Assembly: GCA_964648505.1 (NCBI GenBank)
Contig: CAZYMI010000006.1
Coordinates: 4,223 to 68,222, forward strand
Direction: 5' to 3'
Length of the DNA stretch: 64,000 nt
Origin: an uncultured Pseudobdellovibrionaceae bacterium
GTDB lineage: Bacteria; Pseudomonadota; Alphaproteobacteria; Micavibrionales; Micavibrionaceae
Shown: positions 2,546 to 48,706 of the stretch, in pieces
Layout: every line of letters begins with the position of its first letter
How positions within the stretch are numbered: position 1 is the first letter of the stretch
The notes under the pieces: model-generated
Databases searched by the model: none
What the model saw: the letters and a program-made list of their open reading frames with translations, nothing else
Told to the model about the DNA's origin: nothing
Translations under genes and position numbers: made by a program

Positions 2546-4285
2546 ATGGCTGTGGCTGACAAAATAAGAAAAGACCTGATTAATATTTTATCAAAAGAAG
2601 TGCTTGTCCCCACACGCAAAGGTGGATCATCTTCTCAAATTCAAGATTTTTTTAAAAGATGCCTCAAAGAACTTGCCTGTGGCGATAACGCTGACATCGC
2701 CTATTACATGCTATTTGCAAGAACATGGAAACATATTGGCACAGATATTCTAAATTGGCATCAGGTTCGCGATCTTGCGAACAGATTTGAAAATACGAAG
2801 TGCAAGCATTTACTCTGGCTTCTTGGATTCTTACACGACCCAAACCAAAGCGAATTTCTGCCTTTATCTTTTTTGAATAGTTCAAAATCTCAGTCGTTTT
2901 ATAAAAAAGCGGCAGATCTTGGTGATACTATTTCTTGTTATTCAGTGGCCTATTCCGCGATCAATACAAACATCTCACACACAAAGGAAATGATCAGAAC
3001 GATCAACGCCTACCTTACAAAAGGCATAGAAGCACAATCCAGAGAATGCCTTCTTTTAAAAGCGCGCCTCTTGCTTGCTGGTCAAAAAGGAATAGACGGT
3101 GATTTATCTGACGCTATCAATTATCTTGAAGCTGGTCTCGCTTGCAAACCCGACCATTACTTAAGACAACATGCATCTGATGAAGATTTTAAGTTCTATC
3201 TTGGTCAGATTTATTTTGAGGGAATTGGTACTGACGTTAATATTCTAAAAGGACTTAAACTGCTTCGGGAAGCTTCTCTTTTTGGGCATTCAGGTGCCGC
3301 GCACTGGTACATAAGCAGAGATAAACCCCTGCCTGTTCCTCTCCAAAAATCAGCCCCATCAGATGGAAATACACCCCCAGATTTAAAAAATGTAGAAAAA
3401 AATGAGAAACCAGCAAATCCAATGTCGTTTTTTACAAAACCTAAACCCAAAAAAGACGCGGCAGACCCGTTAAATGACCTTATAGGTTTAGATACAGTAA
3501 AATCTCAATTAAAAAAATTCCTCAGTAAGCAAAAATCTGATGATTTGCGAGACAAGAGCAAACTCAAATCGGTGAAAACCTCAAGCCACATGATTTTTGT
3601 GGGCAACCCTGGTACAGGAAAAACTGAAGTAGCTGTACGCCTTGGTAAACTCATGCACGAAATGGGCATACTGAGGAAAGGCCATATTGTGCAGGCAAAT
3701 CGTGAAGATCTTGTTGGTGAATATATCGGGCAAACCGCCATTAAAACAAAAAAGCAAATTGAGAAGGCCGATGGCGGTATTCTTTTTATTGACGAAGCCT
3801 ACAGTTTATATAAAGACTCAAGTCGCGATTATGGCCATGAAGCCATAGAGACATTGATTGTCGAAATGGAAGCGCGACGCAATAATATGATTGTTATTAT
3901 GGCTGGATACCCAAACGAAACAGATCAGCTTCTCAGAAGCAATCCCGGGCTAGAATCGCGCTTTCCATACAGGATCGAATTTCCTGATTATAAACCAGAT
4001 GAGCTGTCAAAAATATTTGAAAACTTCTGTATAAAAAACGACTACATTGCAACAAAGGAAACAACTGAAAGAGTACACAAACACTACAAAGAACATTTAA
4101 AGAAACATTCGCATAAATTTTCAAATGCGCGCGATGTACGTAACTTATTTGAAAAAACAATTCAAAATCAAGCCTCAAGAATTCTTGAAGTTAAAAATCC
4201 TAAGAAATCTGATCTGGAAACTATTTTGCCGCAAGATCTCGCTTCAGATGTTCGTATTGAAAATGGGAACATTGTTTATCTATAA
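2546..4285 (+). CDS. Sel1/TPR-like repeat protein fused to a CbbX/SpoVK-type AAA+ ATPase
   Basis: The C-terminal half has Walker A GNPGTGKT, Walker B ILFIDEAY, and a CbbX/SpoVK-like run (VGEYIGQTAIKTKK, IVIMAGYPNE, RFPYRIEFPDY). The N-terminal half has Sel1-like segments (GQIYFEGIGTDVNILKGLKLLREAS..GHSGAAHWY). A Pro/Lys-rich linker joins the two halves. Confidence 0.82.
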   Translation: MAVADKIRKDLINILSKEVLVPTRKGGSSSQIQDFFKRCLKELACGDNADIAYYMLFARTWKHIGTDILNWHQVRDLANRFENTKCKHLLWLLGFLHDPNQSEFLPLSFLNSSKSQSFYKKAADLGDTISCYSVAYSAINTNISHTKEMIRTINAYLTKGIEAQSRECLLLKARLLLAGQKGIDGDLSDAINYLEAGLACKPDHYLRQHASDEDFKFYLGQIYFEGIGTDVNILKGLKLLREASLFGHSGAAHWYISRDKPLPVPLQKSAPSDGNTPPDLKNVEKNEKPANPMSFFTKPKPKKDAADPLNDLIGLDTVKSQLKKFLSKQKSDDLRDKSKLKSVKTSSHMIFVGNPGTGKTEVAVRLGKLMHEMGILRKGHIVQANREDLVGEYIGQTAIKTKKQIEKADGGILFIDEAYSLYKDSSRDYGHEAIETLIVEMEARRNNMIVIMAGYPNETDQLLRSNPGLESRFPYRIEFPDYKPDELSKIFENFCIKNDYIATKETTERVHKHYKEHLKKHSHKFSNARDVRNLFEKTIQNQASRILEVKNPKKSDLETILPQDLASDVRIENGNIVYL

Positions 4286-4331
4286 CGACAGAGCACCTTG
4301 AACTTTTGGCGCTGCGGGGTTATCACATTAT

Positions 4332-5690
4332 ATGACCTTTTCTGCTCCCAAACCGCTCACATCTTTTAAATCTGGCGCGCTCAGTGGCGTGGCGCGTGTG
4401 CCAGGGGATAAATCTATCTCTCATCGCGCATTGATGTTTGGTGCCTTAGCATCGGGGGAGACGATTATATCGGGCCTACTTGAAGGCGAAGATGTTATGA
4501 ACACCGCAGATGCCTTGCGCGCCATGGGCGCACGCATTACAACAAGCGGTGACGGCCTGTGGCGCATTTTTGGGGTTGGCGGAAATTTCCTAGAACCTAC
4601 CACAATTTTAGATATGGGGAATTCAGGTACTTCCACACGACTGCTGATGGGCCTTATTGCGGGATCATCCCTGACGGCAATTTTAACAGGCGATGCATCT
4701 TTATTAAAACGACCTATGGCCCGCGTGGTAACGCCGCTTGAAAAAATGGGCGTCACTTTTATGGGCCGTCATGGCGGCAAATTACCGCTTGCGTTATGCG
4801 GCGCAGACGATCTTAAGGCAATTAATTATACGCTGCCTGTTGCATCCGCGCAGGTAAAGTCAGCGATCTTACTTGCAGGCTTATCCGCTCGTGGCACGAC
4901 AACTGTAATTGAGCCAGAGAAAACCCGCGACCATACTGAAAATATGATCCGTCATTTTGGTGGCGTATGTACCATATCGGGTCACGAAATTTCAGTTCAG
5001 GGGGGGCAATCACTGCAAGGATGCGCCGTCGATGTGCCATCTGACCCAAGCTCCGCCGCTTTTATTGCAGTAGCTGCTACCCTGATCCCCGGTTCTAACG
5101 TGACGATTGCGCGTGTGTGCATGAACCCGACACGAACCGGCCTTTATAAAACCTTGCTTGAGATGGGTGCCGCCATCACTTACACAAATGAGCGGATTGA
5201 AGCGGGTGAGCCTGTTGCAGATTTAATCATAACAGGCGGGGCGCCTTTAAAAGGAGTGGATGTGCCACAAGAGCGCGTCGCTTCCATGATCGATGAATTT
5301 CCAATTCTCTCGATCGCGGCTTCCTGTGCACAAGGCACGAGTCATTTCAGTGGCTTAAAAGAATTACGCGTCAAAGAAAGTGATCGCCTTGCAAAAATAG
5401 CCGAAGGGTTAAATGCCTGCGGCGTTTCAATTGAACTTGGCGAAGACTGGCTGACTATTCAGGGCACAGGTAGGCCCCCTGAAGGCGGCGCCTTCATTGA
5501 AACTGCGCTTGATCATCGTATCGCGATGAGTTTTTTAATCATGGGACTTGTTAGTAACCAGCCTGTTACAATTGATGACCGCGCACCTATTGCAACAAGC
5601 TTCCCGAATTTTATTGATCTGATGCAAAGTATAGGTGCTAAGCTTGATACGCCGGATGGTGATGGTTTAATCGACTTTCGTACAGCATGA
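4332..5690 (+). CDS. aroA: 3-phosphoshikimate 1-carboxyvinyltransferase (EPSP synthase)
   Basis: 452 aa with VPGDKSISHRALMFGALASGET, LGNSGTS-type loop (MGNSGTSTRLL) and RVKESDRL motifs. Followed by cmk-rpsA, which is conserved synteny. Confidence 0.95.
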   Translation: MTFSAPKPLTSFKSGALSGVARVPGDKSISHRALMFGALASGETIISGLLEGEDVMNTADALRAMGARITTSGDGLWRIFGVGGNFLEPTTILDMGNSGTSTRLLMGLIAGSSLTAILTGDASLLKRPMARVVTPLEKMGVTFMGRHGGKLPLALCGADDLKAINYTLPVASAQVKSAILLAGLSARGTTTVIEPEKTRDHTENMIRHFGGVCTISGHEISVQGGQSLQGCAVDVPSDPSSAAFIAVAATLIPGSNVTIARVCMNPTRTGLYKTLLEMGAAITYTNERIEAGEPVADLIITGGAPLKGVDVPQERVASMIDEFPILSIAASCAQGTSHFSGLKELRVKESDRLAKIAEGLNACGVSIELGEDWLTIQGTGRPPEGGAFIETALDHRIAMSFLIMGLVSNQPVTIDDRAPIATSFPNFIDLMQSIGAKLDTPDGDGLIDFRTA

Positions 5691-6454: not shown

Positions 6455-8182
6455 ATGGCTCATGCAGCTGCCAATCTACAGGATCGGGCGGAATCGTCCG
6501 ATTTTCTAAACTTACTCACTGAATCCCTCGGCGCAAAAAAATCATTCGAGGGGTCTGTCGTTAAAGGCCGGGTGATTTCACTCGGGGACGATTTTGTTAT
6601 GGTCGATGTCGGCCTGAAATCTGAAGGTCGTGTCTTGTTGCGCGAATTCACAAGCCCAGGGCAAGATCCGGAAATTCGTATAGGCGATACCGTAGAAGTC
6701 TATGTCGAAAAAATTGAAAACAAAAATGGCGAAGCGGTTCTAAGCCGTGAAAAAGCGCGCCGCGAAGAAGTATGGGGAACGCTTGAGCAATCCCATCTTA
6801 AAACAGAACGTGTTACAGGCGTCATCTTTGGTCGGGTTAAAGGCGGGTTCACTGTTGATCTGGGTGGCGCGGTTGCGTTCTTGCCAGGGTCACAAGTGGA
6901 TATTCGCCCCGTTCGCGACGTTTCACCGCTTATGGGCACACCACAACCTTTCATGATCCTTAAAATGGATCGTGCGCGTGGTAACATTGTTGTTTCTCGC
7001 CGTGCAGTTCTTGAAGAATCACGCGAAGAAGCACGTTCAGATATTCTGGGCACATTGCGCGAAGGCCAGGTCATGACAGGTGTTGTCAAAAACATCACCG
7101 ATTACGGTGCGTTTATTGATCTGGGCGGTGTTGATGGCTTGCTCCATGTGACCGATATTTCATGGAAGCGTATCAATAACCCCTCTGAAGTACTGACAAT
7201 CGGCCAATCGATTGAAGTACAGGTGATCCGTTACAACACAGAAAATGGTCGTATCAGCCTTGGTATGAAACAACTTGAATCTGATCCGTGGAAAGGTGTT
7301 GTTGAAAAATACACAACCGGCACACGTCTTTCAGGCAAGGTGACAAACTTAACCGATTACGGTGCGTTCATTGAACTTGAAACAGGCATTGAAGGTCTGG
7401 TTCACGTCTCAGAAATGTCTTGGACCAAGAAAAACGTTCATCCGAACAAAATCTTAAATTCTGGTGAGACCGTTGATGTCATGGTTTTAGATGTTGATAT
7501 GGATAAACGCCGTATCTCGCTTGGCTTAAAGCAGACTCAAGAGAATCCTTGGAAAGCTTTCGCCGAAAAATTCAAATCAGGCCAGGATATTGAAGGCGAA
7601 ATCCGCAATATCACCGAATTTGGATTGTTTGTTGCCGTTGATGGCGACATTGATGGTATGGTTCATCTTTCCGACATTAGCTGGGAAGATGCGACAGAAG
7701 ATGCGCTTAAAGCATACGCCAAAGGCGACATGGTCAAGGCACGTATCCTTGATGTTGACGCAGAAAAAGAACGCGTATCGCTTGGTATCAAGCAGCTGAC
7801 ATCCGATCCACATGAAGGCGCCCTTAAAGGCGTTGCCAAAGGCTCGACTGTCACATGCACGGTAACGGCAATTTCTGATAAAGGAATAGACGTTTTGGTG
7901 AATGAATCGCTTTCAGGTCATATCAAAAAAGCTGATCTGTCACGCGAGCGTTCAGAACAGCGCACAGACCGCTTTGCTGTTGGTGAAAAAGTGGATGCGA
8001 AAGTTACAGCCATCGATGCAAAAACCAAGAAGCTGCAGCTTTCCATCAAACAGCGCGAACTGGATGAGGATAAAGAAGCCATGGCCGCTTACGGATCAAC
8101 TGAATCCGGTGCGTCCCTTGGTGACATTTTAGGTGCAGCCCTTAAAGGTTCAGCCCCTGCAAAAGATGAAGCCAGCGAATAA
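6455..8182 (+). CDS. rpsA: 30S ribosomal protein S1
   Basis: Six S1-domain repeats (for example GxVxxITDYGAFIDLGGVDGLLHVTDISW). I moved the start to the ATG at 6455, which is preceded by AAGGAAAA. The ORF-track start at 6392 is a TTG extension. Confidence 0.95.
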   Translation: MAHAAANLQDRAESSDFLNLLTESLGAKKSFEGSVVKGRVISLGDDFVMVDVGLKSEGRVLLREFTSPGQDPEIRIGDTVEVYVEKIENKNGEAVLSREKARREEVWGTLEQSHLKTERVTGVIFGRVKGGFTVDLGGAVAFLPGSQVDIRPVRDVSPLMGTPQPFMILKMDRARGNIVVSRRAVLEESREEARSDILGTLREGQVMTGVVKNITDYGAFIDLGGVDGLLHVTDISWKRINNPSEVLTIGQSIEVQVIRYNTENGRISLGMKQLESDPWKGVVEKYTTGTRLSGKVTNLTDYGAFIELETGIEGLVHVSEMSWTKKNVHPNKILNSGETVDVMVLDVDMDKRRISLGLKQTQENPWKAFAEKFKSGQDIEGEIRNITEFGLFVAVDGDIDGMVHLSDISWEDATEDALKAYAKGDMVKARILDVDAEKERVSLGIKQLTSDPHEGALKGVAKGSTVTCTVTAISDKGIDVLVNESLSGHIKKADLSRERSEQRTDRFAVGEKVDAKVTAIDAKTKKLQLSIKQRELDEDKEAMAAYGSTESGASLGDILGAALKGSAPAKDEASE

Positions 8183-43950: not shown

Positions 43951-45348
43951 TTATGAGGCTCCAATAAGTCGGTATTGAAGGGTTACATACTCCTCAAACC
44001 CCCATTTTCCGCCCTCGCGCCCGAAACCTGAATGCTTTATACCCCCAAAAGGGATCTGCGGCATGGCCAGCGATACCTCATTAACCCCGACCATTCCAAA
44101 GTCCAGACCGGCGCAAACCCTTTGTGCCCGCATTAGATCTTTAGTGAAAACATAGGCTGCAAGGCCATAAGGGGTTGAATTAGCCCGCGCGATCACCTCT
44201 ACTTCATCAAAAAAAGAAAACAAGGCTGCAACAGGCCCAAAGGTTTCCGCACAGGCTGGCAGCATATCATCGGCCATATCAGCAAGAAGTGTAGGCTCAA
44301 AAAATGTCCCGCCTAAAACATGTTGTTTACCACCACATAAAATTTTTGCCCCACGCGCAACTGAATCCGTAATATGGCTTTTCACTTTCTCAATCGCCGC
44401 ACTGTCTATAAGCGGCCCTATTTTAACGCCTTCTATATTTCCGGCACCTACTTTAAGAAAACCGATTTGTTTTTGCAGTTCAACCGCAAGGGCACTGTAA
44501 ATTCCCGCCTGAACATAAATACGATTTGCTGAAACGCATGTCTGCCCAGCATTGCGGAATTTACTGGCTATTATTCCTGATGCTGCGTCTTGCACGTCAC
44601 AATCATCAAAAATAATAAACGGTGCATTGCCACCAAGCTCTAAAGAAAGCTTTTTTAAAGTCGGGGCGCATTGGGCCATCAGCAATTTGCCAATTTCTGT
44701 CGAGCCCGTAAAAGAAACCTTACGAATTCTATCATCAGCACATAGCACCTGACCGACAGCCTCAACATTTGATGCAGAACTCGTTAAAAGAACAAGCACA
44801 CTCATAGGTATATCGGCCTGATATGCTAAATCAACCAATGCTTTTGCAATCAAAGGCGTTTGTTCTGCCGGCTTTAGAATAACGCTGCAACCAACCGCCA
44901 AAGCCGGGGCAATTTTACGCGTAACCATTGAGGCCGGAAAATTCCATGGTGTAATAGCCACAACCGGCCCAATCGGCTTTTTATCAATCATGGCTATTGT
45001 GTTTGGCCTTGAAGACGCAACCGTTTCACTTTTTAAGCTTTCTGAAGCATGATCAGCGCACCATTTTATGGTCGCAACGCAGCCTGTTATTTCTGAATGC
45101 GCTTCTGGGATTGGCTTACCCTGCTCGGCTGACAAGAGCGCACAAAGCCGATCACTTTCCCGTTCAATAAAATCAGCCCAGCGCATCAATCGCGCGCAAC
45201 GTTCTGATAAAGCAAGCCCCGACCAGACTGGAAACGATTTTGTAACTTTTTCTATAGCATGTGTGGCGTCTTCAGGCCCTGCATCAAGGATACTGCCAAT
45301 ACAAGATCCATCTGCTGGATTAAAAACCTGAAACTGTTTAGTTGTCAT
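43951..45348 (-). CDS. gabD: NAD(P)-dependent succinate-semialdehyde dehydrogenase (aldehyde dehydrogenase family)
   Basis: ALDH motifs LELGGNAP and FRNAGQTCVSANR (catalytic Cys), with a GabD-like overall pattern. Confidence 0.85.
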   Translation of the reverse strand: MTTKQFQVFNPADGSCIGSILDAGPEDATHAIEKVTKSFPVWSGLALSERCARLMRWADFIERESDRLCALLSAEQGKPIPEAHSEITGCVATIKWCADHASESLKSETVASSRPNTIAMIDKKPIGPVVAITPWNFPASMVTRKIAPALAVGCSVILKPAEQTPLIAKALVDLAYQADIPMSVLVLLTSSASNVEAVGQVLCADDRIRKVSFTGSTEIGKLLMAQCAPTLKKLSLELGGNAPFIIFDDCDVQDAASGIIASKFRNAGQTCVSANRIYVQAGIYSALAVELQKQIGFLKVGAGNIEGVKIGPLIDSAAIEKVKSHITDSVARGAKILCGGKQHVLGGTFFEPTLLADMADDMLPACAETFGPVAALFSFFDEVEVIARANSTPYGLAAYVFTKDLMRAQRVCAGLDFGMVGVNEVSLAMPQIPFGGIKHSGFGREGGKWGFEEYVTLQYRLIGAS

Positions 45349-45856: not shown

Positions 45857-46680
45857 TTGTAAATATAAGATAGCCTGCGTTTTGAAAAGTTCCACACTGG
45901 AAAGGCATGAGCCGTATAAGGCCCGTGCACAGTGACGCATGTTCCTGCTGAACGAAAAAGCGGTGTACATGATGTTCTTCCATTTATTCTTATGCGCCCG
46001 TCTTCAGGATCTAAACTGTTGCTAGTACTTAAAACATCAACATCAGTGTAAGGCGTGCCGTCTTGGTAATCTGGATCATAGCGCTCAATATACACTCGCC
46101 TATAATCACAATGAGAATGCTGTGCTACAACCCCAAATTCATCTTTAAGATTTATACTTGAAAGTCTAAAAATTCGTCCATGGACAAATGATGCGCCAGA
46201 TAAAAGTATGGAATTGTAAGCTTGCACACGCGCTTCAATAAAATATTTGAGATTAGATTGATTACTTAAATATTGTAATCGATCTTCTAAATATTTACGC
46301 ATGCGTTCTACAGCTGTTTTGCGTTCGTGATCAAAGTTTTTGTGGTTTCCGCTCAATAATATCGAGGTTAAAGTCTTAAGAATCCCCGGAAGTTTTCGTG
46401 CTCGCTTTATATCGGGACATTTTTCTAAACGAAAAGCTTCTGTCAGCATTGTAAAATCATCTTCACCAGCCTCAGTGATTGCCCAGCGCGCAAATTCTTC
46501 CGCTTCCGGAATATTATCGCGCCGCCAAAGCCCAACGTAATTTTCTGCGTCAGGACGAAATGATAAGGCTGACGCATCATCGCCACGCGTTTCCTTATAG
46601 GCATAACCCGCAGGCGGCATGATAAGTAAATCACGACTATCGCCATATAAAATACGCTCAGAAGCTATTAGATTTTTCAT
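45853..46680 (-). CDS. Hypothetical protein (275 aa)
   Basis: Long ORF with no signal peptide and no recognisable motif. Its stop overlaps the tspO stop convergently by 4 nt. Confidence 0.55.
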   Translation of the reverse strand: MKNLIASERILYGDSRDLLIMPPAGYAYKETRGDDASALSFRPDAENYVGLWRRDNIPEAEEFARWAITEAGEDDFTMLTEAFRLEKCPDIKRARKLPGILKTLTSILLSGNHKNFDHERKTAVERMRKYLEDRLQYLSNQSNLKYFIEARVQAYNSILLSGASFVHGRIFRLSSINLKDEFGVVAQHSHCDYRRVYIERYDPDYQDGTPYTDVDVLSTSNSLDPEDGRIRINGRTSCTPLFRSAGTCVTVHGPYTAHAFPVWNFSKRRLSYIYN

Positions 46681-47154
46681 CTTGATCGAAGCCTATAAAA
46701 TCTATTGAGCTTATGTCAATTAATTTACATGAGATGGATACAAAAAAACGTAATTTTATTGCTTTTTTAGGGGGTGGATTCGTGGGCAGGCTGTGGATTG
46801 TTTTGTGTATTTTCTTAAAAAAACCTTGCCTGTCAAATTTATGGCAGCATGCTTTTTTATTTTTATTCTGCAACACAACATCATCAAAAATCAGACAAAA
46901 AGACTCGACACAAAAAGCGCGGCCTGTCTTACTGTTCTTATCAAGCAACGTACAGATCAACATCGCAGATCGCCAAAGATCGTTGTTTAAAGGTACCGGT
47001 TGGTCACTGGTGCCCGGTTTAAATAAATCACTTTCAGCTGACGGGCTGATAAATTTATTAAAGCTGAAGGGACAAGCGTTCCACCACCGGCCAAAAACAG
47101 ACCCATATGACTCGTGGTCGTGCACGTAAAAACATTTGCAGGGTTTTGTTTTTG

Positions 47155-47507
47155 TCGAAAGCCGGAGGTGCTGGCAAGTTCCGAATTATCGGGAAGCTGT
47201 ATAAACAGAATTCCAGCCCCGATGCGTGGTGTGACACGCCACGATAAAGAAAGTGAACAGTCTTGGGACTTCGGGACTGTTCTGCGCCTCGGGCCGCAAT
47301 CTGAAATGGTTGCGTGGGATGAAAAACCCGTATGCCAGGGGAAGAGTGATGAAGTCATGTGCGATGTGAGCCTTGGGCCCCTTGCCGGAAAGGGCAGCAT
47401 CCTGCGGGACGCGTCTGGCAAGATTGACCCAAGTGATTTCCCAAACGGCCCCGGCTTTGTTCGCTTTATTCAGTAATGAATATCGCACAGCAAAGCCGGG
47501 GTTTTTT
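47155..47507 (+). ncRNA. Candidate structured RNA or cis-regulatory leader of unknown family
   Basis: Locally GC-enriched block with open frames on both strands but no credible CDS. Many nested helices: ATCGGG/CCCGAT 47188-47223; CGTGGTGT/ACGCCACG 47225-47243; ACAGTC/GACTGT 47257-47280; CTTGGG/CCCAAG 47372-47433, which encloses CTTGCCGGA/TCTGGCAAG (G-U in place of one pair) and GCAG/CTGC. It ends in a strong terminator. The 5' boundary is not defined. Confidence 0.35.
47449..47507 (+). terminator. Strong intrinsic terminator with a large loop
   Basis: 11-bp stem CCCCGGCTTTG (47449-47459) / CAAAGCCGGGG (47491-47501) followed by T6. The 5' arm can alternatively pair with AAAGCCGG at 47158-47165. 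Confidence 0.7.
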
Positions 47508-47669
47508 ATTCCCCACAATCTGTACAAACATTCAACTTTTGACTTTTATCTTAAGTATAGGGTCTTCTTGCCTGCTCTTTTTTAGACTTGCCGACTGCAT
47601 GCTCCGGTGTTTATAGCTATTGCTTAATGAGTTATAATTTTTCGAATCAGCATTAGCGGTAACTAATTT

Positions 47670-48200
47670 ATGGGTTTCAAATTTGAAAAAATGTCTGTGC
47701 TTGTTGTTGAAGACAATGAGCCTATGCGCCGGTTAATCGTTTCAGTCTTAGAAACGCTCGGTGTTGGCCGTATATTACAAGCAAGCGATGGTGAAAAAGG
47801 CCTGAGCGTTTATCAAACCAACAAACCTGATGCGATTTTGCTTGATTGGGAAATGATGCCCATGAACGGGATCGAAATGATCAGGCGTATCCGCTATACC
47901 CCTAATATGCCTAATCGATATGTCCCTATTATTTTAATTACGGGCTATGGGGCGCTGTCTCGCGTGACGCAAGCGCGCGATGCGGGGGTTACTGAATTTC
48001 TGGTCAAGCCTTTTACAGCAGGTGATCTTGCACGAAGGCTTGCTTACATCATTAATAAGCCTCGTGATTTTATCGATGCGCAGGATTATTTTGGGCCTGA
48101 CAGGCGGCGAAAAGCTGCTGATGACTACAAAGGCCCCAAACGTCGTCAAAACGACACAGATCAAGATCAAGAAGCAGAAAACTGGTATATTGGACGATGA
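47670..48200 (+). CDS. CheY-like single-domain response regulator with an Arg-rich C-terminal tail
   Basis: Receiver motifs VVEDNE, LLDWEMMPMNG (phospho-Asp), IILITG and VKPF. A roughly 45-aa tail reads FGPDRRRKAADDYKGPKRRQ. Confidence 0.87.
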   Translation: MGFKFEKMSVLVVEDNEPMRRLIVSVLETLGVGRILQASDGEKGLSVYQTNKPDAILLDWEMMPMNGIEMIRRIRYTPNMPNRYVPIILITGYGALSRVTQARDAGVTEFLVKPFTAGDLARRLAYIINKPRDFIDAQDYFGPDRRRKAADDYKGPKRRQNDTDQDQEAENWYIGR

Positions 48201-48706
48201 CAAGCTCAGAACAAAAAACACCAAAAGCACGCATTATTTCCGCCAATTATGATTTACAAAATCGTGTCGGCGCAGGCCCTCTTGATGAAAAGAAAGTGCA
48301 AAGGGCAGAAGAGGTTATTCAGAACAATACGGTTGATTTTAAACCTATGGCGCTCGGCTTTTTACAAGAATTGATTGACGGGACAAATACAGCAAAGCAA
48401 TCCGATCTTCCACTTAAAGACAGGCTTGCTGCAATGACGCGGCCCGTTATGAACTTAAAAGCAAATGCCGGAATGTTTGGCTACACCCTTGTCACTAAAC
48501 TTACAAATGTCATGCTCGGTTTTCTTGAACATATTGATGATCTGGACAAGGATGCGGTTGAAATTGTCGCCGCCCATCATGCTACCCTGACATTAATCGT
48601 CACGCGCAGCATGAAAGGCGATGGCGGGCCGGATGGCGATGCTTTGGTGAAAGAACTGACCGAAGCTTGTAAACGCTATTATTCCCGCAAAGGGCTAAAA
48701 ACCTAA
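48197..48706 (+). CDS. Hypothetical helical protein, weakly Hpt-like but without the phosphorylatable His
   Basis: ATGA overlap with the response regulator gene. The segment MNLKANAGMFGY resembles the Hpt motif HxLKGxxxxxG, with Asn in place of His. Confidence 0.6.
   Translation: MTSSEQKTPKARIISANYDLQNRVGAGPLDEKKVQRAEEVIQNNTVDFKPMALGFLQELIDGTNTAKQSDLPLKDRLAAMTRPVMNLKANAGMFGYTLVTKLTNVMLGFLEHIDDLDKDAVEIVAAHHATLTLIVTRSMKGDGGPDGDALVKELTEACKRYYSRKGLKT

What the first reader, a model, noticed from the sequence alone, without database searches (positions are those of the whole stretch)
47155..47507. Unassigned 350-nt GC-enriched structured element with terminator/anti-terminator geometry
The roughly 1-kb gap between the 275-aa orphan gene and the CheY-like regulator has no credible CDS, even though ORFs are open in several frames on both strands. 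That pattern is typical of a compositionally distinct RNA gene.

I can draw many nested helices by hand; they are listed under the feature. The block ends in an 11-bp-stem terminator followed by T6. The 5' arm of that terminator (CCGGCTTT, 47451-47458) is also complementary to AAAGCCGG at 47158-47165. Pairing those two would close the entire structured domain like a riboswitch P1 helix and prevent terminator formation. This is the logic of a ligand- or factor-controlled attenuator, but the domain is unusually large.

I looked for hallmark strings of RNase P (GGAAAGUCCGG), tmRNA (GGGG...UUCGA...CCACCA with a G3:U pair), the SRP domain IV motif, and the cobalamin, TPP, glycine and FMN riboswitch cores. 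I found none on either strand.
Basis: partly seen in the sequence, partly recalled or inferred. Interest (0 to 1): 0.62.

Follow-up and report, generated by a model that had tools for sequence, protein, structure and literature searches.

The report
New large RNA in Micavibrio relatives

Summary
The structured block at 47155-47507 is real, but it is only the 3' part of a larger unit. That unit is a stand-alone RNA gene, about 46940-47507 on the + strand. It has its own promoter (A-tract plus CTCGAC -35 box at 46897-46909) and a covarying intrinsic terminator (47447-47507).

Homologues of 468-708 nt occur once per genome in 85 of 237 genomes of the same family (34 of 60 genera) and in a second family of the order. 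None were found in about 400 other Alphaproteobacteria.

On 43 distinct sequences, 18 of 23 tested core pairs show compensatory changes. These include a compact H-type pseudoknot with no exceptions.

Rfam 15 gives no match. RNase P RNA, tmRNA and 6S RNA lie elsewhere in the genome, and no ORF is conserved.

Two homologues are held by at least 29 metatranscriptome runs between them. Contigs laid from nine runs cover only the RNA, at assembler depths up to about 5000 where a gene about 650 nt upstream had 3.6 and the downstream CheY gene none.

Half of the homologues are not followed by the CheY gene, so the attenuator reading fails.

One hairpin always carries a self-complementary loop (CGCG, UGCA, CAUG, GAAUUC and others). 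In OLE and GOLLD RNA this pattern marks intermolecular kissing, so dimerisation is my favoured but unproven mechanism.

The parts
46897..46909 (+). Promoter: A-tract plus -35 box (AAAAAGACUCGAC at DNA level; -35 = CTCGAC, 46904-46909).
   Evidence: AAAAA[ATG]GACTCGAC is nearly invariant and starts 33 of 39 non-redundant homologous loci. The mapped 5' end of the L040 homologue lies 31 nt after this box, so the box is promoter and not RNA. Its resemblance to the alphaproteobacterial CTTGAC -35 consensus is from my own knowledge.
46927..46932 (+). Inferred -10 hexamer (TCTTAC), 17 nt after the -35 box.
   Evidence: Inferred from spacing only. The position aligns with CAATCT, TCATCA or TAAATC in homologues. 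It is a weak match and not tested.
46940..47507 (+). The whole RNA gene (about 568 nt). The start is inferred to within about 3 nt.
   Evidence: nhmmer homology runs from 46756 to 47513 in the closest relative. The 5' end is transferred from L040, where adapter-flanked cDNA ends at L040:2755. The 3' end is the terminator. G-U pairs fix the strand.
46943..46988 (+). P1: AAGCAACG (46943-50) pairs with CGUUGUUU (46981-88), enclosing a variable hairpin.
   Evidence: An alignment-free zone test gave 7.5 pair-units in the window against 4.7 in shuffles (p = 0.007). Homologues use different sequences at the same place: CUUCGGG/CCUCGAAG, CCGGAC/GUCCGG, CCAAGAC/GUCUUGG. Overall the mean was 6.5 against 5.3. 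Support is moderate.
46992..47014 (+). P3 hairpin: GGUACCGG, loop UUGGUCA, CUGGUGCC.
   Evidence: The same hairpin, with a conserved (U)UGGUC(A) loop and 4-6 different pair types at each of the five loop-proximal stem levels, was found in 30 distinct sequences. The hairpins were picked by search, so the 100% pairing is by construction.
47022..47059 (+). P4: AAUAAAU (47022-28) pairs with AUUUAUU (47053-59), enclosing hairpin 47034-47049.
   Evidence: The helix sits in the same place in homologues with unrelated sequences: UUUUCGG/CCGGAAG, GGGUAGAUGGG/CCCGUUUGCUC, UCUUGCGGA/UCCGCGAGG. The mean was 6.3 against 4.8 in shuffles, and 9 of 34 sequences had p < 0.05.
47063..47072 (+). Conserved purine-rich motif GCUGAAGGGA (consensus GCUUAAGGGR), probably unpaired.
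   Evidence: Present in nearly all homologues. Its partner is unknown. Pairing with the 3' UCCC motif was examined and is not supported by the variation.
47113..47135 (+). H-type pseudoknot. S1 is CGUG (47113-16) with CACG (47123-26). S2 is GUG (47120-22) with CAU (47133-35). The A-rich loop 3 is UAAAAA.
   Evidence: On 43 distinct sequences S1 is 98.8% paired (CG 19, UA 19, AU 3 at the outer pair; one GC to CG swap). S2 is 100% paired (CG 27 / UA 16 and GC 33 / AU 10, with no exception).
47179..47187 (+). Conserved single-stranded motif UUCCGAAUU (consensus YCUGAAAU).
   Evidence: Alignments A1 and A2.
47188..47223 (+). P-pal hairpin: AUCGGG/CCCGAU and GCUG/CAGC, with a 14-nt loop that holds the palindrome GAAUUC (47208-13).
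   Evidence: All five base pairs show compensatory changes. Every one of 43 distinct sequences has a self-complementary tetramer at the apex or in the loop: CGCG 17, UGCA 16, and GAUC, UUAA, ACGU, CAUG, UCGA, AAUU for the rest. 39 of 43 have a palindrome of at least 6 nt, against 2 of 43 and 5 of 43 in two other hairpins of the same RNAs.
47226..47248 (+). PC hairpin, GUGG (47226-29) with CCAC (47239-42), followed by the invariant GAUAAA.
   Evidence: 100% paired on 43 sequences. One sequence changes both inner pairs together (GUCA/UGAC).
47255..47282 (+). PG hairpin, GAACAGUC with GACUGUUC. The loop holds GGG (consensus loop NGGGUU).
   Evidence: All 7 modelled pairs show compensatory changes and 98.3% are paired. 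The GGG loop may pair with the GRCCC just 5' of the pseudoknot. One compensatory case (L010) was seen, so this is tentative.
47283..47434 (+). GC-rich 3' domain, expanded in this lineage.
   Evidence: The distance from PC to the CUUCCC motif is 189 nt here against about 120-145 nt in most homologues. The conserved CCUGCR...YGCAGGAGCAUGC helix of relatives is not recognisable here, and the window has the lowest model score (76 bits against about 76-134 in the other loci).
47435..47446 (+). Conserved pre-terminator motif GAUUUCCCAAAC (consensus GCUUCCCAAA).
47447..47507 (+). Intrinsic terminator: stem 47447-47459 / 47491-47503, then a U-tract to 47507.
   Evidence: 12 consensus pairs, 10 of them with compensatory changes and almost none broken, in 30 sequences. 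Metatranscriptome contigs of homologues end inside this hairpin.

Best explanation
Window 46940-47507 (+) is a stand-alone gene for a large (about 570 nt; 468-708 nt in relatives), multi-domain, pseudoknotted non-coding RNA. It is confined to Micavibrio-like Alphaproteobacteria.

Shown:
- It has its own conserved promoter and a conserved, covarying Rho-independent terminator.
- It is single-copy.
- At least six helices are kept by compensatory changes.
- It belongs to no Rfam family, and is not the genome's RNase P RNA, tmRNA or 6S RNA.
- Homologues accumulate as a discrete transcript that far exceeds the neighbouring mRNAs.

Inferred:
- It acts in trans as a stable structural RNA (RNA-only or ribonucleoprotein scaffold), not as a cis regulator of the CheY-like gene that follows it here.
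- It pairs with a second copy of itself through the self-complementary loop of hairpin 47188-47223, forming a symmetric dimer or higher assembly in the way OLE, ROOL and GOLLD RNAs do.

Its cellular role is unknown.
For: Conservation and extent:
- nhmmer homology covers 46756-47513 in the nearest relative.
- There are 39 non-redundant full-length homologues with the same block order.

Structure:
- On a model-guided alignment of 43 distinct sequences, 96.8% of cells are paired against 81.4% in shuffles and at most 49% with slid partners.
- 18 of 23 pairs have changes on both sides.
- The pseudoknot's stem 2 has no exception.
- The terminator has 10 of 12 pairs with compensatory changes.

Distribution:
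- One copy in each of 85 of 237 family genomes (34 of 60 genera).
- 13 genomes of a second family also hold it.
- Among 401 genomes drawn from across the class, the only matches were the window's own genome and one of its family.
- A strict pattern over 185,579 species' genomes found 37 loci, nearly all labelled Alphaproteobacteria or Micavibrio.

Not a known RNA:
- Rfam at E up to 10 found nothing on the window, and at E up to 1 nothing on 11 homologous loci.
- RNase P RNA is on contig C22, alpha tmRNA on C19 and 6S RNA on C9.

Not coding.

Expression:
- The L040 homologue is in at least 14 RNA runs and the L055 homologue in at least 15.
- The laid contigs, 100% identical, cover only the RNA.
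- Depth reached 4982 and 3591, where a gene about 650 nt upstream had 3.6 and the downstream CheY gene had no contig.
- Contigs matching the tmRNA and RNase P RNA of a complete genome of the same genus whose RNA core scores identically had depths of 383 and 137.

Independence from CheY.

Self-complementary loop:
-.
- Switching among palindromes is used as evidence for intermolecular kissing in OLE L9.3 and GOLLD L21a (bioRxiv 10.1101/2024.12.08.627333).
Against: - No RNA run holds the window's own copy, so expression is shown only for homologues.
- Contig depth is a rough measure, and the genome used for the tmRNA and RNase P comparison may not be the exact strain in those samples.
- Dimerisation is inferred from sequence pattern alone. 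In the short variants the palindrome is just a 4-nt loop on a perfect hairpin, which is small for a kissing loop.
- A palindrome could instead be a DNA-level binding site for a dimeric protein.
- The RNA is missing from about 60% of family genomes at this sensitivity. That includes 13 loci that keep the CheY pair, so it is not essential to the lineage.
- The 5' and 3' domains are only partly solved. P1 and P4 rest on a zone test of modest strength.
- The window's copy is the most divergent one.
Confidence: 0.8

Rival explanations
1. The element is a cis-acting leader of the CheY-like operon: a very large riboswitch-like or factor-controlled attenuator. A closing helix (47158-65 with 47451-58) would compete with the terminator and decide read-through into 47670.
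For: - The RNA lies 160 nt upstream of, and on the same strand as, the CheY-like gene.
- The 8-nt complementarity is present, and within this one RNA only 7% of shuffles give as long a match.
- The CheY pair follows the RNA in about half of the independently found loci.
Against: - The pairing is absent from the other 38 homologues analysed.
- 12 of 23 unbiased loci have other downstream genes, some of them convergent.
- A promoter-like site (TTTATA-17-TATAAT, 47610-47638) lies between the terminator and CheY.
- No contig runs from the RNA into CheY, although the RNA reaches depth about 3600-5000.
- No aptamer family matches.
- 13 loci keep the CheY pair without the RNA.
Confidence: 0.03
2. The RNA is a protein- or small-molecule-sequestering 'sponge'. 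Possibilities are a 6S-like RNA polymerase decoy, a Csr/Rsm-type decoy, or a ligand sink like the massively expressed orphan c-di-GMP riboswitch (merRNA) of the predator Bdellovibrio. On this reading its abundance is the point.
For: - Abundance is very high relative to neighbours and to tmRNA and RNase P RNA.
- Several invariant unpaired motifs could be binding sites.
- The organisms are predatory, and the RNA often sits beside a signalling pair.
- The merRNA parallel is from my own knowledge (Karunker et al. 2013) and was not read here.
Against: - A(N)GGA motifs are not enriched: 4.3 per RNA against 4.7 in shuffles.
- The genome has an ordinary 6S RNA elsewhere.
- No known aptamer is detectable.
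- A 500-700-nt multi-domain fold with a pseudoknot is far more elaborate than known sponges need.
Confidence: 0.12
3. The RNA is a ribozyme or the RNA subunit of an unrecognised ribonucleoprotein enzyme. Its invariant unpaired nucleotides (GAUAAA, CUGAAAU, GCUUAAGGG, the pseudoknot) would form an active site.
For: - The pattern of short invariant single-stranded blocks held between covarying helices, plus a pseudoknot, is what large ribozymes show.
- The size and single-copy, housekeeping-like expression fit.
Against: - No processing junctions, self-cleavage products or joints appear in the contigs.
- The RNA is absent from most genomes of the family, which argues against a core enzymatic role.
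- No conserved partner gene was found.
Confidence: 0.08
4. The block is a small or decayed protein-coding gene. The candidates are the 120-aa ORF 47114-47476, which stops in the terminator loop, or the minus-strand 113-aa ORF.
For: - An open frame spans almost the whole block and ends at the terminator.
- A gene caller has called an 84-aa product here.
Against: - No family hits.
- No homologue other than the window's own product among 5.8 billion proteins.
- No tblastn conservation in the 38 homologous loci; the best E-value is 0.06, and only the pseudoknot nucleotides match.
- Homologues differ by indels of all lengths, and their median longest open frame is 68 aa.
- Variation follows base-pairing and not codons.
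Confidence: 0.01

Closest known systems
OLE RNA (ornate, large, extremophilic; about 600 nt, Bacillota)
   Same: - Similar size, with many covarying helices interspersed with invariant unpaired blocks.
- Stand-alone and highly expressed.
- A hairpin loop switches among palindromes. In OLE (L9.3) this marks a symmetric intermolecular kissing loop in the cryo-EM dimer.
   Different: - No sequence or structure match to the Rfam model.
- Different phylum and lifestyle.
- No oapA-like partner genes are seen next to it.
- Here dimerisation is only inferred.
ROOL and GOLLD RNAs (RNA-only nanocages)
   Same: - Large ornate RNAs of unknown function with pseudoknots.
- Self-interacting kissing loops supported by covariation.
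- Very abundant transcripts.
   Different: - Those are mostly phage or prophage-associated and often lie next to tRNAs. This RNA is single-copy at a syntenic chromosomal site with no phage genes or tRNAs nearby.
- No model match.
Transcription-terminating riboswitch or attenuator
   Same: Structured RNA ending in an intrinsic terminator, upstream of and co-oriented with a gene in this window.
   Different: - The alternative pairing is not conserved.
- The downstream gene is not conserved.
- The transcript accumulates as a stable end product.
- It is three to five times larger than typical aptamers.
Bdellovibrio merRNA (massively expressed orphan c-di-GMP riboswitch). From my own knowledge, not read here.
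   Same: An orphan, extremely abundant structured RNA in an obligate bacterial predator, ending in a terminator with no ORF of its own.
   Different: merRNA is a recognisable GEMM-I aptamer of about 150 nt. This RNA has no GEMM or other aptamer match and is about 570 nt.
preQ1-I-type compact H-type pseudoknots (topology only, from my own knowledge)
   Same: The 23-nt element 47113-47135 has a 4-bp stem 1, a short loop 1, a 3-bp stem 2 formed by the 3' tail, and an A-rich loop 3.
   Different: - There is no match to the preQ1 models at E up to 10.
- It is embedded in a large RNA and is not next to a ribosome-binding site.
- Ligand binding is untested.

Membership tests
Terminator-type riboswitch / attenuator | Sits in the 5' leader of the regulated gene in most members. 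| tested here: not met
   Only 11 of 23 independently found loci with enough downstream sequence have the CheY pair downstream. The others have different genes, some of them convergent.
Terminator-type riboswitch / attenuator | Conserved mutually exclusive pairing between the sensor domain and the terminator's 5' arm. | tested here: not met
   The 8-nt pairing occurs only in the window. Homologues have 3-6 nt, which is like shuffles.
Terminator-type riboswitch / attenuator | Recognisable aptamer core. | tested here: not met
   No Rfam riboswitch family matched at E up to 10 on the window or at E up to 1 on 11 homologues.
Terminator-type riboswitch / attenuator | Conditional read-through transcripts. 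| tested here: inconclusive
   No contig extends past the terminator in 4 runs. However, contigs drop rare forms and the conditions are unknown.
tmRNA (including two-piece alpha tmRNA) | tRNA-like domain plus tag reading frame; one gene per genome. | tested here: not met
   ARAGORN finds nothing here. The genome's alpha_tmRNA is on C19 at 238 bits.
RNase P RNA (bacterial type A) | Match to the conserved P4 / CR-I to CR-V core. | tested here: not met
   No match here. The genome's RNase P RNA is on C22 at 308 bits.
6S RNA | About 180-nt rod with a central bubble; matches RF00013. | tested here: not met
   6S RNA is on C9 at 62.5 bits. There is no match here.
OLE / ROOL / GOLLD / raiA / HEARO and other catalogued large RNAs | Match to the family covariance model. 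| tested here: not met
   cmscan against all 4227 Rfam 15 families gave only chance-level hits, for example LOOT at 16 bits, E = 6.6.
Large ornate RNAs as a functional kind (works like, not membership) | Longer than 450 nt, several covarying helices, a pseudoknot, invariant unpaired blocks, abundant stand-alone transcript. | tested here: met
Large ornate RNAs as a functional kind (works like, not membership) | Homo-oligomer through symmetric kissing loops. | not testable with these tools
   Only the sequence signature is seen: palindromes switching among 8 tetramers in 43 sequences, with the logic taken. Native gels, SEC-MALS or cryo-EM are needed.
Csr/Rsm-type protein sponge | Many GGA motifs in loops, enriched over chance. 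| tested here: not met
   4.3 A(N)GGA per RNA against 4.7 in shuffles.

The most novel reading that the evidence does not exclude
This would be a new class of self-assembling ornate RNA specific to predatory Micavibrio-like bacteria. The abundant roughly 550-nt RNA would form a symmetric RNA-only dimer or larger particle through its palindromic kissing loop, as OLE, ROOL and GOLLD do. It would have a role in the predator's life cycle, and it would be the first such RNA in Alphaproteobacteria and at a chromosomal, non-phage locus. Because it already dominates wastewater metatranscriptomes, it could be taken directly to cryo-EM from an in vitro transcript.
Probability: 0.35. Interest if true: 0.85.

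Novelty: new variant of a known kind. Interest (0 to 1): 0.72.

Why it matters
Large, intricately folded bacterial RNAs of unknown function number only about a dozen classes, to my knowledge. Each one so far (RNase P RNA, tmRNA, OLE, ROOL, GOLLD, HEARO) has turned out to do something unexpected.

This one comes from a poorly studied group of obligate bacterial predators. It shows clear compensatory changes in the tested core and terminator pairs (28 of 35), including a very compact pseudoknot. It also carries the same sequence signature that recently revealed RNA-only quaternary assemblies.

By assembler depth it exceeds the tmRNA and RNase P RNA matched to a genome of the same genus, in several independent wastewater and bioreactor metatranscriptome studies. 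It has therefore been sequenced heavily without, as far as I could find, being named.

It is directly testable: in vitro transcription and native gels or cryo-EM for assembly, pull-downs for partners, and read-level metatranscriptomics for expression dynamics.

For annotation, the finding removes a spurious 84-120-aa hypothetical protein. It also shows that the CheY-like operon here has no leader-based control.

Tried and rejected
1. Protein gene. ORFs on both strands have no family, no homologue and no tblastn conservation.
2. tmRNA, RNase P RNA and 6S RNA. Each was found elsewhere in the genome. ARAGORN found no tmRNA anywhere in the genome, which is a false negative of that tool for this two-piece gene.
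3. Any Rfam family. None matched.
4. Repeat or mobile element. The region is single-copy in its own genome and in every positive genome.
5. It is not conserved.
6. My first reading of GACUCGAC...GAGUC as the RNA's first hairpin. I dropped it after cDNA ends placed the 5' end 31 nt downstream of the box, which makes the box a -35 element.
7. Pairing of GCUUAAGGG with the 3' CUUCCC motif. Purine changes on one side are not matched on the other.
8. A naive all-against-all helix scan. It was swamped by G/U-rich conserved motifs and was not used.
9. MAFFT plus RNAalifold on the full length and on the 5' domain. It recovered only part of the helices, so I used a covariance-model alignment for the core and an alignment-free zone test for P1 and P4.
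10. Csr-type sponge. GGA motifs are not enriched.
11. Three raw-read RNA runs (X41-X43) held no reads of the L040 homologue, so exact ends and strand could not be read from reads.
12. No RNA run holds the window's own sequence.
13. Literature. No paper in the library combines Micavibrio with ncRNA terms beyond the ARL-13 genome paper, which does not mention such an RNA.
Full report
**What is in the window.** The interval 47100-47500 is GC-enriched (0.49-0.56, against 0.34-0.41 in the flanks; the genome is 0.444). It ends in a strong hairpin followed by U6. It folds better than shuffles (z = -4.0), but so does the opposite strand (z = -4.4), so folding energy alone decides nothing. A 120-aa ORF (47114-47476) spans the block and stops in the terminator loop. 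That ORF and the other ORFs have no Pfam or NCBIfam family. The only relative among 5.8 billion proteins is the window's own 84-aa call. Rfam 15 at E up to 10 gives nothing relevant on 46000-48500, and ARAGORN finds nothing. The stretch is single-copy in its 1.9-Mb genome, a MAG seen in biofilter, wastewater and biofilm metagenomes.

**How the homologues were found.** A DNA search in relatives gave only 25-36-nt matches around 47108-47145 in three genomes. In two of them (G015, G017) the match lay about 1.1-2.2 kb upstream of an orthologue of the 169-aa gene that follows the CheY-like gene.
- An nhmmer search of 46700-47669 against the regions upstream of those orthologues showed homology across 46756-47513 in the closest relative (E = 7e-17). 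More distant relatives shared shorter cores.
- The conserved blocks appear in a fixed order: AAAAAGACTCGAC; a hairpin with a UUGGUC loop; GCUUAAGGG; CGUGGUCGYRCACGUAAAAAYRU; YCUGAAAU; a hairpin; GAGUGGUU...GCCACGAUAAAU; a hairpin with an NGGGUU loop; GCUUCCCAAA; and a terminator.
- A strict two-block pattern run over one genome for each of 185,579 species found 37 loci. Nearly all are labelled Alphaproteobacteria, Micavibrio sp. or Rhodospirillales.
- After removing duplicates I had 39 full-length sequences. From the inferred start they measure 468-708 nt, with a median of 535 nt.

**Structure.** I built a covariance model of the core (164 positions; window 47110-47275) and aligned 62 hits, 43 of them distinct.
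- With the pseudoknot added, 96.8% of cells form standard pairs, against 81.4% in column shuffles and at most 49% when partners are slid by 1-3 columns.
- 18 of 23 pairs have changes on both sides, and no shuffle reached any of the five measures.
- The element at 47113-47135 is a compact H-type pseudoknot. Stem 1 is CGUG/CACG, with CG 19, UA 19 and AU 3 at the outer pair and one GC-to-CG swap. Stem 2 is GYR/YRU, with CG 27 / UA 16 and GC 33 / AU 10 and not one exception.
- The terminator has 12 consensus pairs, 10 of them with compensatory changes.
- In the 5' domain the UUGGUC-loop hairpin recurs with 4-6 pair types at each stem level (the hairpins were picked by search, so full pairing is by construction).
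- Two enclosing helices, P1 and P4, recur at fixed places with unrelated sequences. An alignment-free test gives 6.5 against 5.3 and 6.3 against 4.8 pair-units for observed against shuffled, which is moderate support.
- G-U pairs in several helices fix the + strand.

**Ends and promoter.** No RNA run holds the window's own sequence. The homologue L040:2279-2799 is held by at least 14 metatranscriptome runs from about ten studies.
- In five runs, a single contig of 422-476 nt, 100% identical, covers only 2315-2755, and the flanks have no contig.
- One of these contigs carries sequencing adapters at both ends (2327 and 2755). A second contig also ends at 2755.
- That places the 5' end 31 nt downstream of the GACTCGAC box. 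The nearly invariant AAAAA-GACTCGAC is therefore a promoter (A-tract plus a CTCGAC -35 box), not RNA. I dropped my first drawing of it as a hairpin.
- Transferred by alignment, the window's RNA starts at about 46940, with a weak -10 (TCTTAC, 46927-32), and ends in the U-tract at 47502-47507. That gives about 568 nt (coordinates read).

**Abundance.** A second homologue (L055), which has the same RNA-then-CheY layout as the window, is held by at least 15 RNA runs.
- Contigs cover 6813-7283 only, at assembler depths of 54.6, 4982, 25.5 and 3591.
- In the run with depth 4982, a contig over a gene about 650 nt upstream has depth 3.6. No contig lies over the CheY gene in any of the four runs.
- I then took the tmRNA and RNase P RNA of a complete genome of the same genus whose RNA core scores identically. 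Near-identical contigs of these have depths of 383 (tmRNA, same run as 4982) and 137 (RNase P RNA, same run as 3591).
- Contig depth is a rough measure and strain identity is not certain. Even so, the RNA is clearly a discrete, very abundant product.

**Is it a leader of the CheY operon?**
- Among the 23 pattern-found loci with enough downstream sequence, 11 have the CheY and 169-aa pair downstream and 12 do not. Among those 12, several have a convergent gene a few tens to about 400 nt beyond the terminator, including a serA-like gene in a few.
- Thirteen loci keep the CheY pair but have no RNA.
In the other 38 sequences the best match between the equivalent region and the terminator's 5' arm is 3-6 nt, and whole-RNA matches are no better than shuffles.
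- A promoter-like site lies between the terminator and CheY.
- The attenuator model is therefore not supported.

**Is it a known RNA?**
- Rfam finds nothing on the window or on 11 homologues.
- The genome has its RNase P RNA (C22, 308 bits), two-piece alpha tmRNA (C19, 238 bits) and 6S RNA (C9, 62.5 bits) elsewhere.
- GGA motifs are not enriched.
- The paper library holds nothing that links Micavibrio with such an RNA. The ARL-13 genome and RNA-seq paper does not mention one.
- Earlier notes of this scan hold no look-alike.

**Distribution.**
- One copy each in 85 of 237 genomes of the family, or 74 of 185 good-quality genomes and 34 of 60 genera.
- Thirteen genomes of a second family of the same order also have it.
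- Among 401 genomes drawn from across the class, the only matches were the window's own genome and one of its family.
- These searches score only the best dozen candidates per genome, so the counts are lower bounds.
- The window's copy is the most divergent, at 76 bits. Its 3' domain carries about 50-60 extra GC-rich nucleotides and lacks the CCUGCR...YGCAGGAGCAUGC helix of relatives.

**A lead on mechanism.** The hairpin at 47188-47223 has a covarying base. In every one of 43 distinct sequences it also has a self-complementary tetramer at its apex or inside a large A-rich loop.
- The tetramers are CGCG (17), UGCA (16), and GAUC, UUAA, ACGU, CAUG, UCGA and AAUU for the rest.
- They often extend to 6-8 nt: AUCGCGAU, AUUGCAAU, and GAAUUC in the window.
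- 39 of 43 sequences have a palindrome of at least 6 nt, against 2 of 43 and 5 of 43 in two other hairpins of the same RNAs. Shuffles give a mean longest palindrome of 3.4 nt.
- Adjacent bases cannot pair within one chain. Kretsch et al. used exactly this pattern, loops switching among palindromes, as evolutionary support for the intermolecular kissing loops seen by cryo-EM in the OLE dimer and the GOLLD cage.
- I therefore favour a symmetric dimer or higher assembly. This rests on sequence pattern only. A DNA-level protein site, or an unusual tetraloop, remains possible.

**Verdict.** The element is a new family of large, ornate, highly expressed bacterial RNA. It works like OLE, ROOL and GOLLD in its general features but is a member of none of them. 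Its function is unknown, and a testable prediction of self-association exists.

Noticed in passing
own genome, contig C19:11134-11507 (outside the window): ARAGORN run on the whole 99.98%-complete genome reports no tmRNA at all. Infernal finds a clear two-piece alpha tmRNA at 238 bits. So ARAGORN misses the permuted tmRNA of this lineage.
   Followed up: partly
L041, about 25 nt before the pseudoknot motif: One homologue carries a tandem duplication of the 25-nt pseudoknot element (GTGGTCGCACACATAAAAATGTTTG followed by GTGGTCGCGCACATAAAAACGT). Each copy keeps its own covarying stem 2.
   Followed up: no
L008 and L072, downstream of the RNA: The CheY-like gene plus 169-aa gene pair is present twice in tandem in two relatives. 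The 169-aa protein has 1-6 paralogues per genome in 109 of 121 family genomes, yet it has no Pfam or NCBIfam family.
   Followed up: partly
window 43951-45348 (-), and loci L046, L053, L040, L056, L058, L064, L066: The upstream neighbourhood is syntenic. An aldehyde or succinate-semialdehyde dehydrogenase-like gene, or a giant 980-1960-aa protein beginning MAN(E/P/Q)..., lies on the opposite strand upstream of the RNA in several relatives. In some (L037, L046, L056, L058, L062, L066) a serA-like gene is convergent downstream.
   Followed up: partly
window 46700-46890: An AT-rich (about 34% GC), roughly 200-nt spacer lies between the divergently oriented 275-aa orphan gene (start at 46680) and the RNA promoter. 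It contains a -35/-10-like site on the minus strand (46836-46809) and a small terminator-like hairpin (46830-46847).
   Followed up: no
family genomes G031, G101, G129 (complete, 2.5 Mb) and genus g54: Whole genera with complete genomes lack any match to the RNA core, and 13 loci keep the CheY pair without it. The RNA has either been lost repeatedly or replaced by something the model does not recognise.
   Followed up: partly
loci L043, L048, L054: Three MAG records that carry the RNA are labelled Pseudobdellovibrionaceae or Bacteroidetes. At least one (L043) is the same contig as a genome of the window's family, so these labels look like mis-assignments.
   Followed up: no
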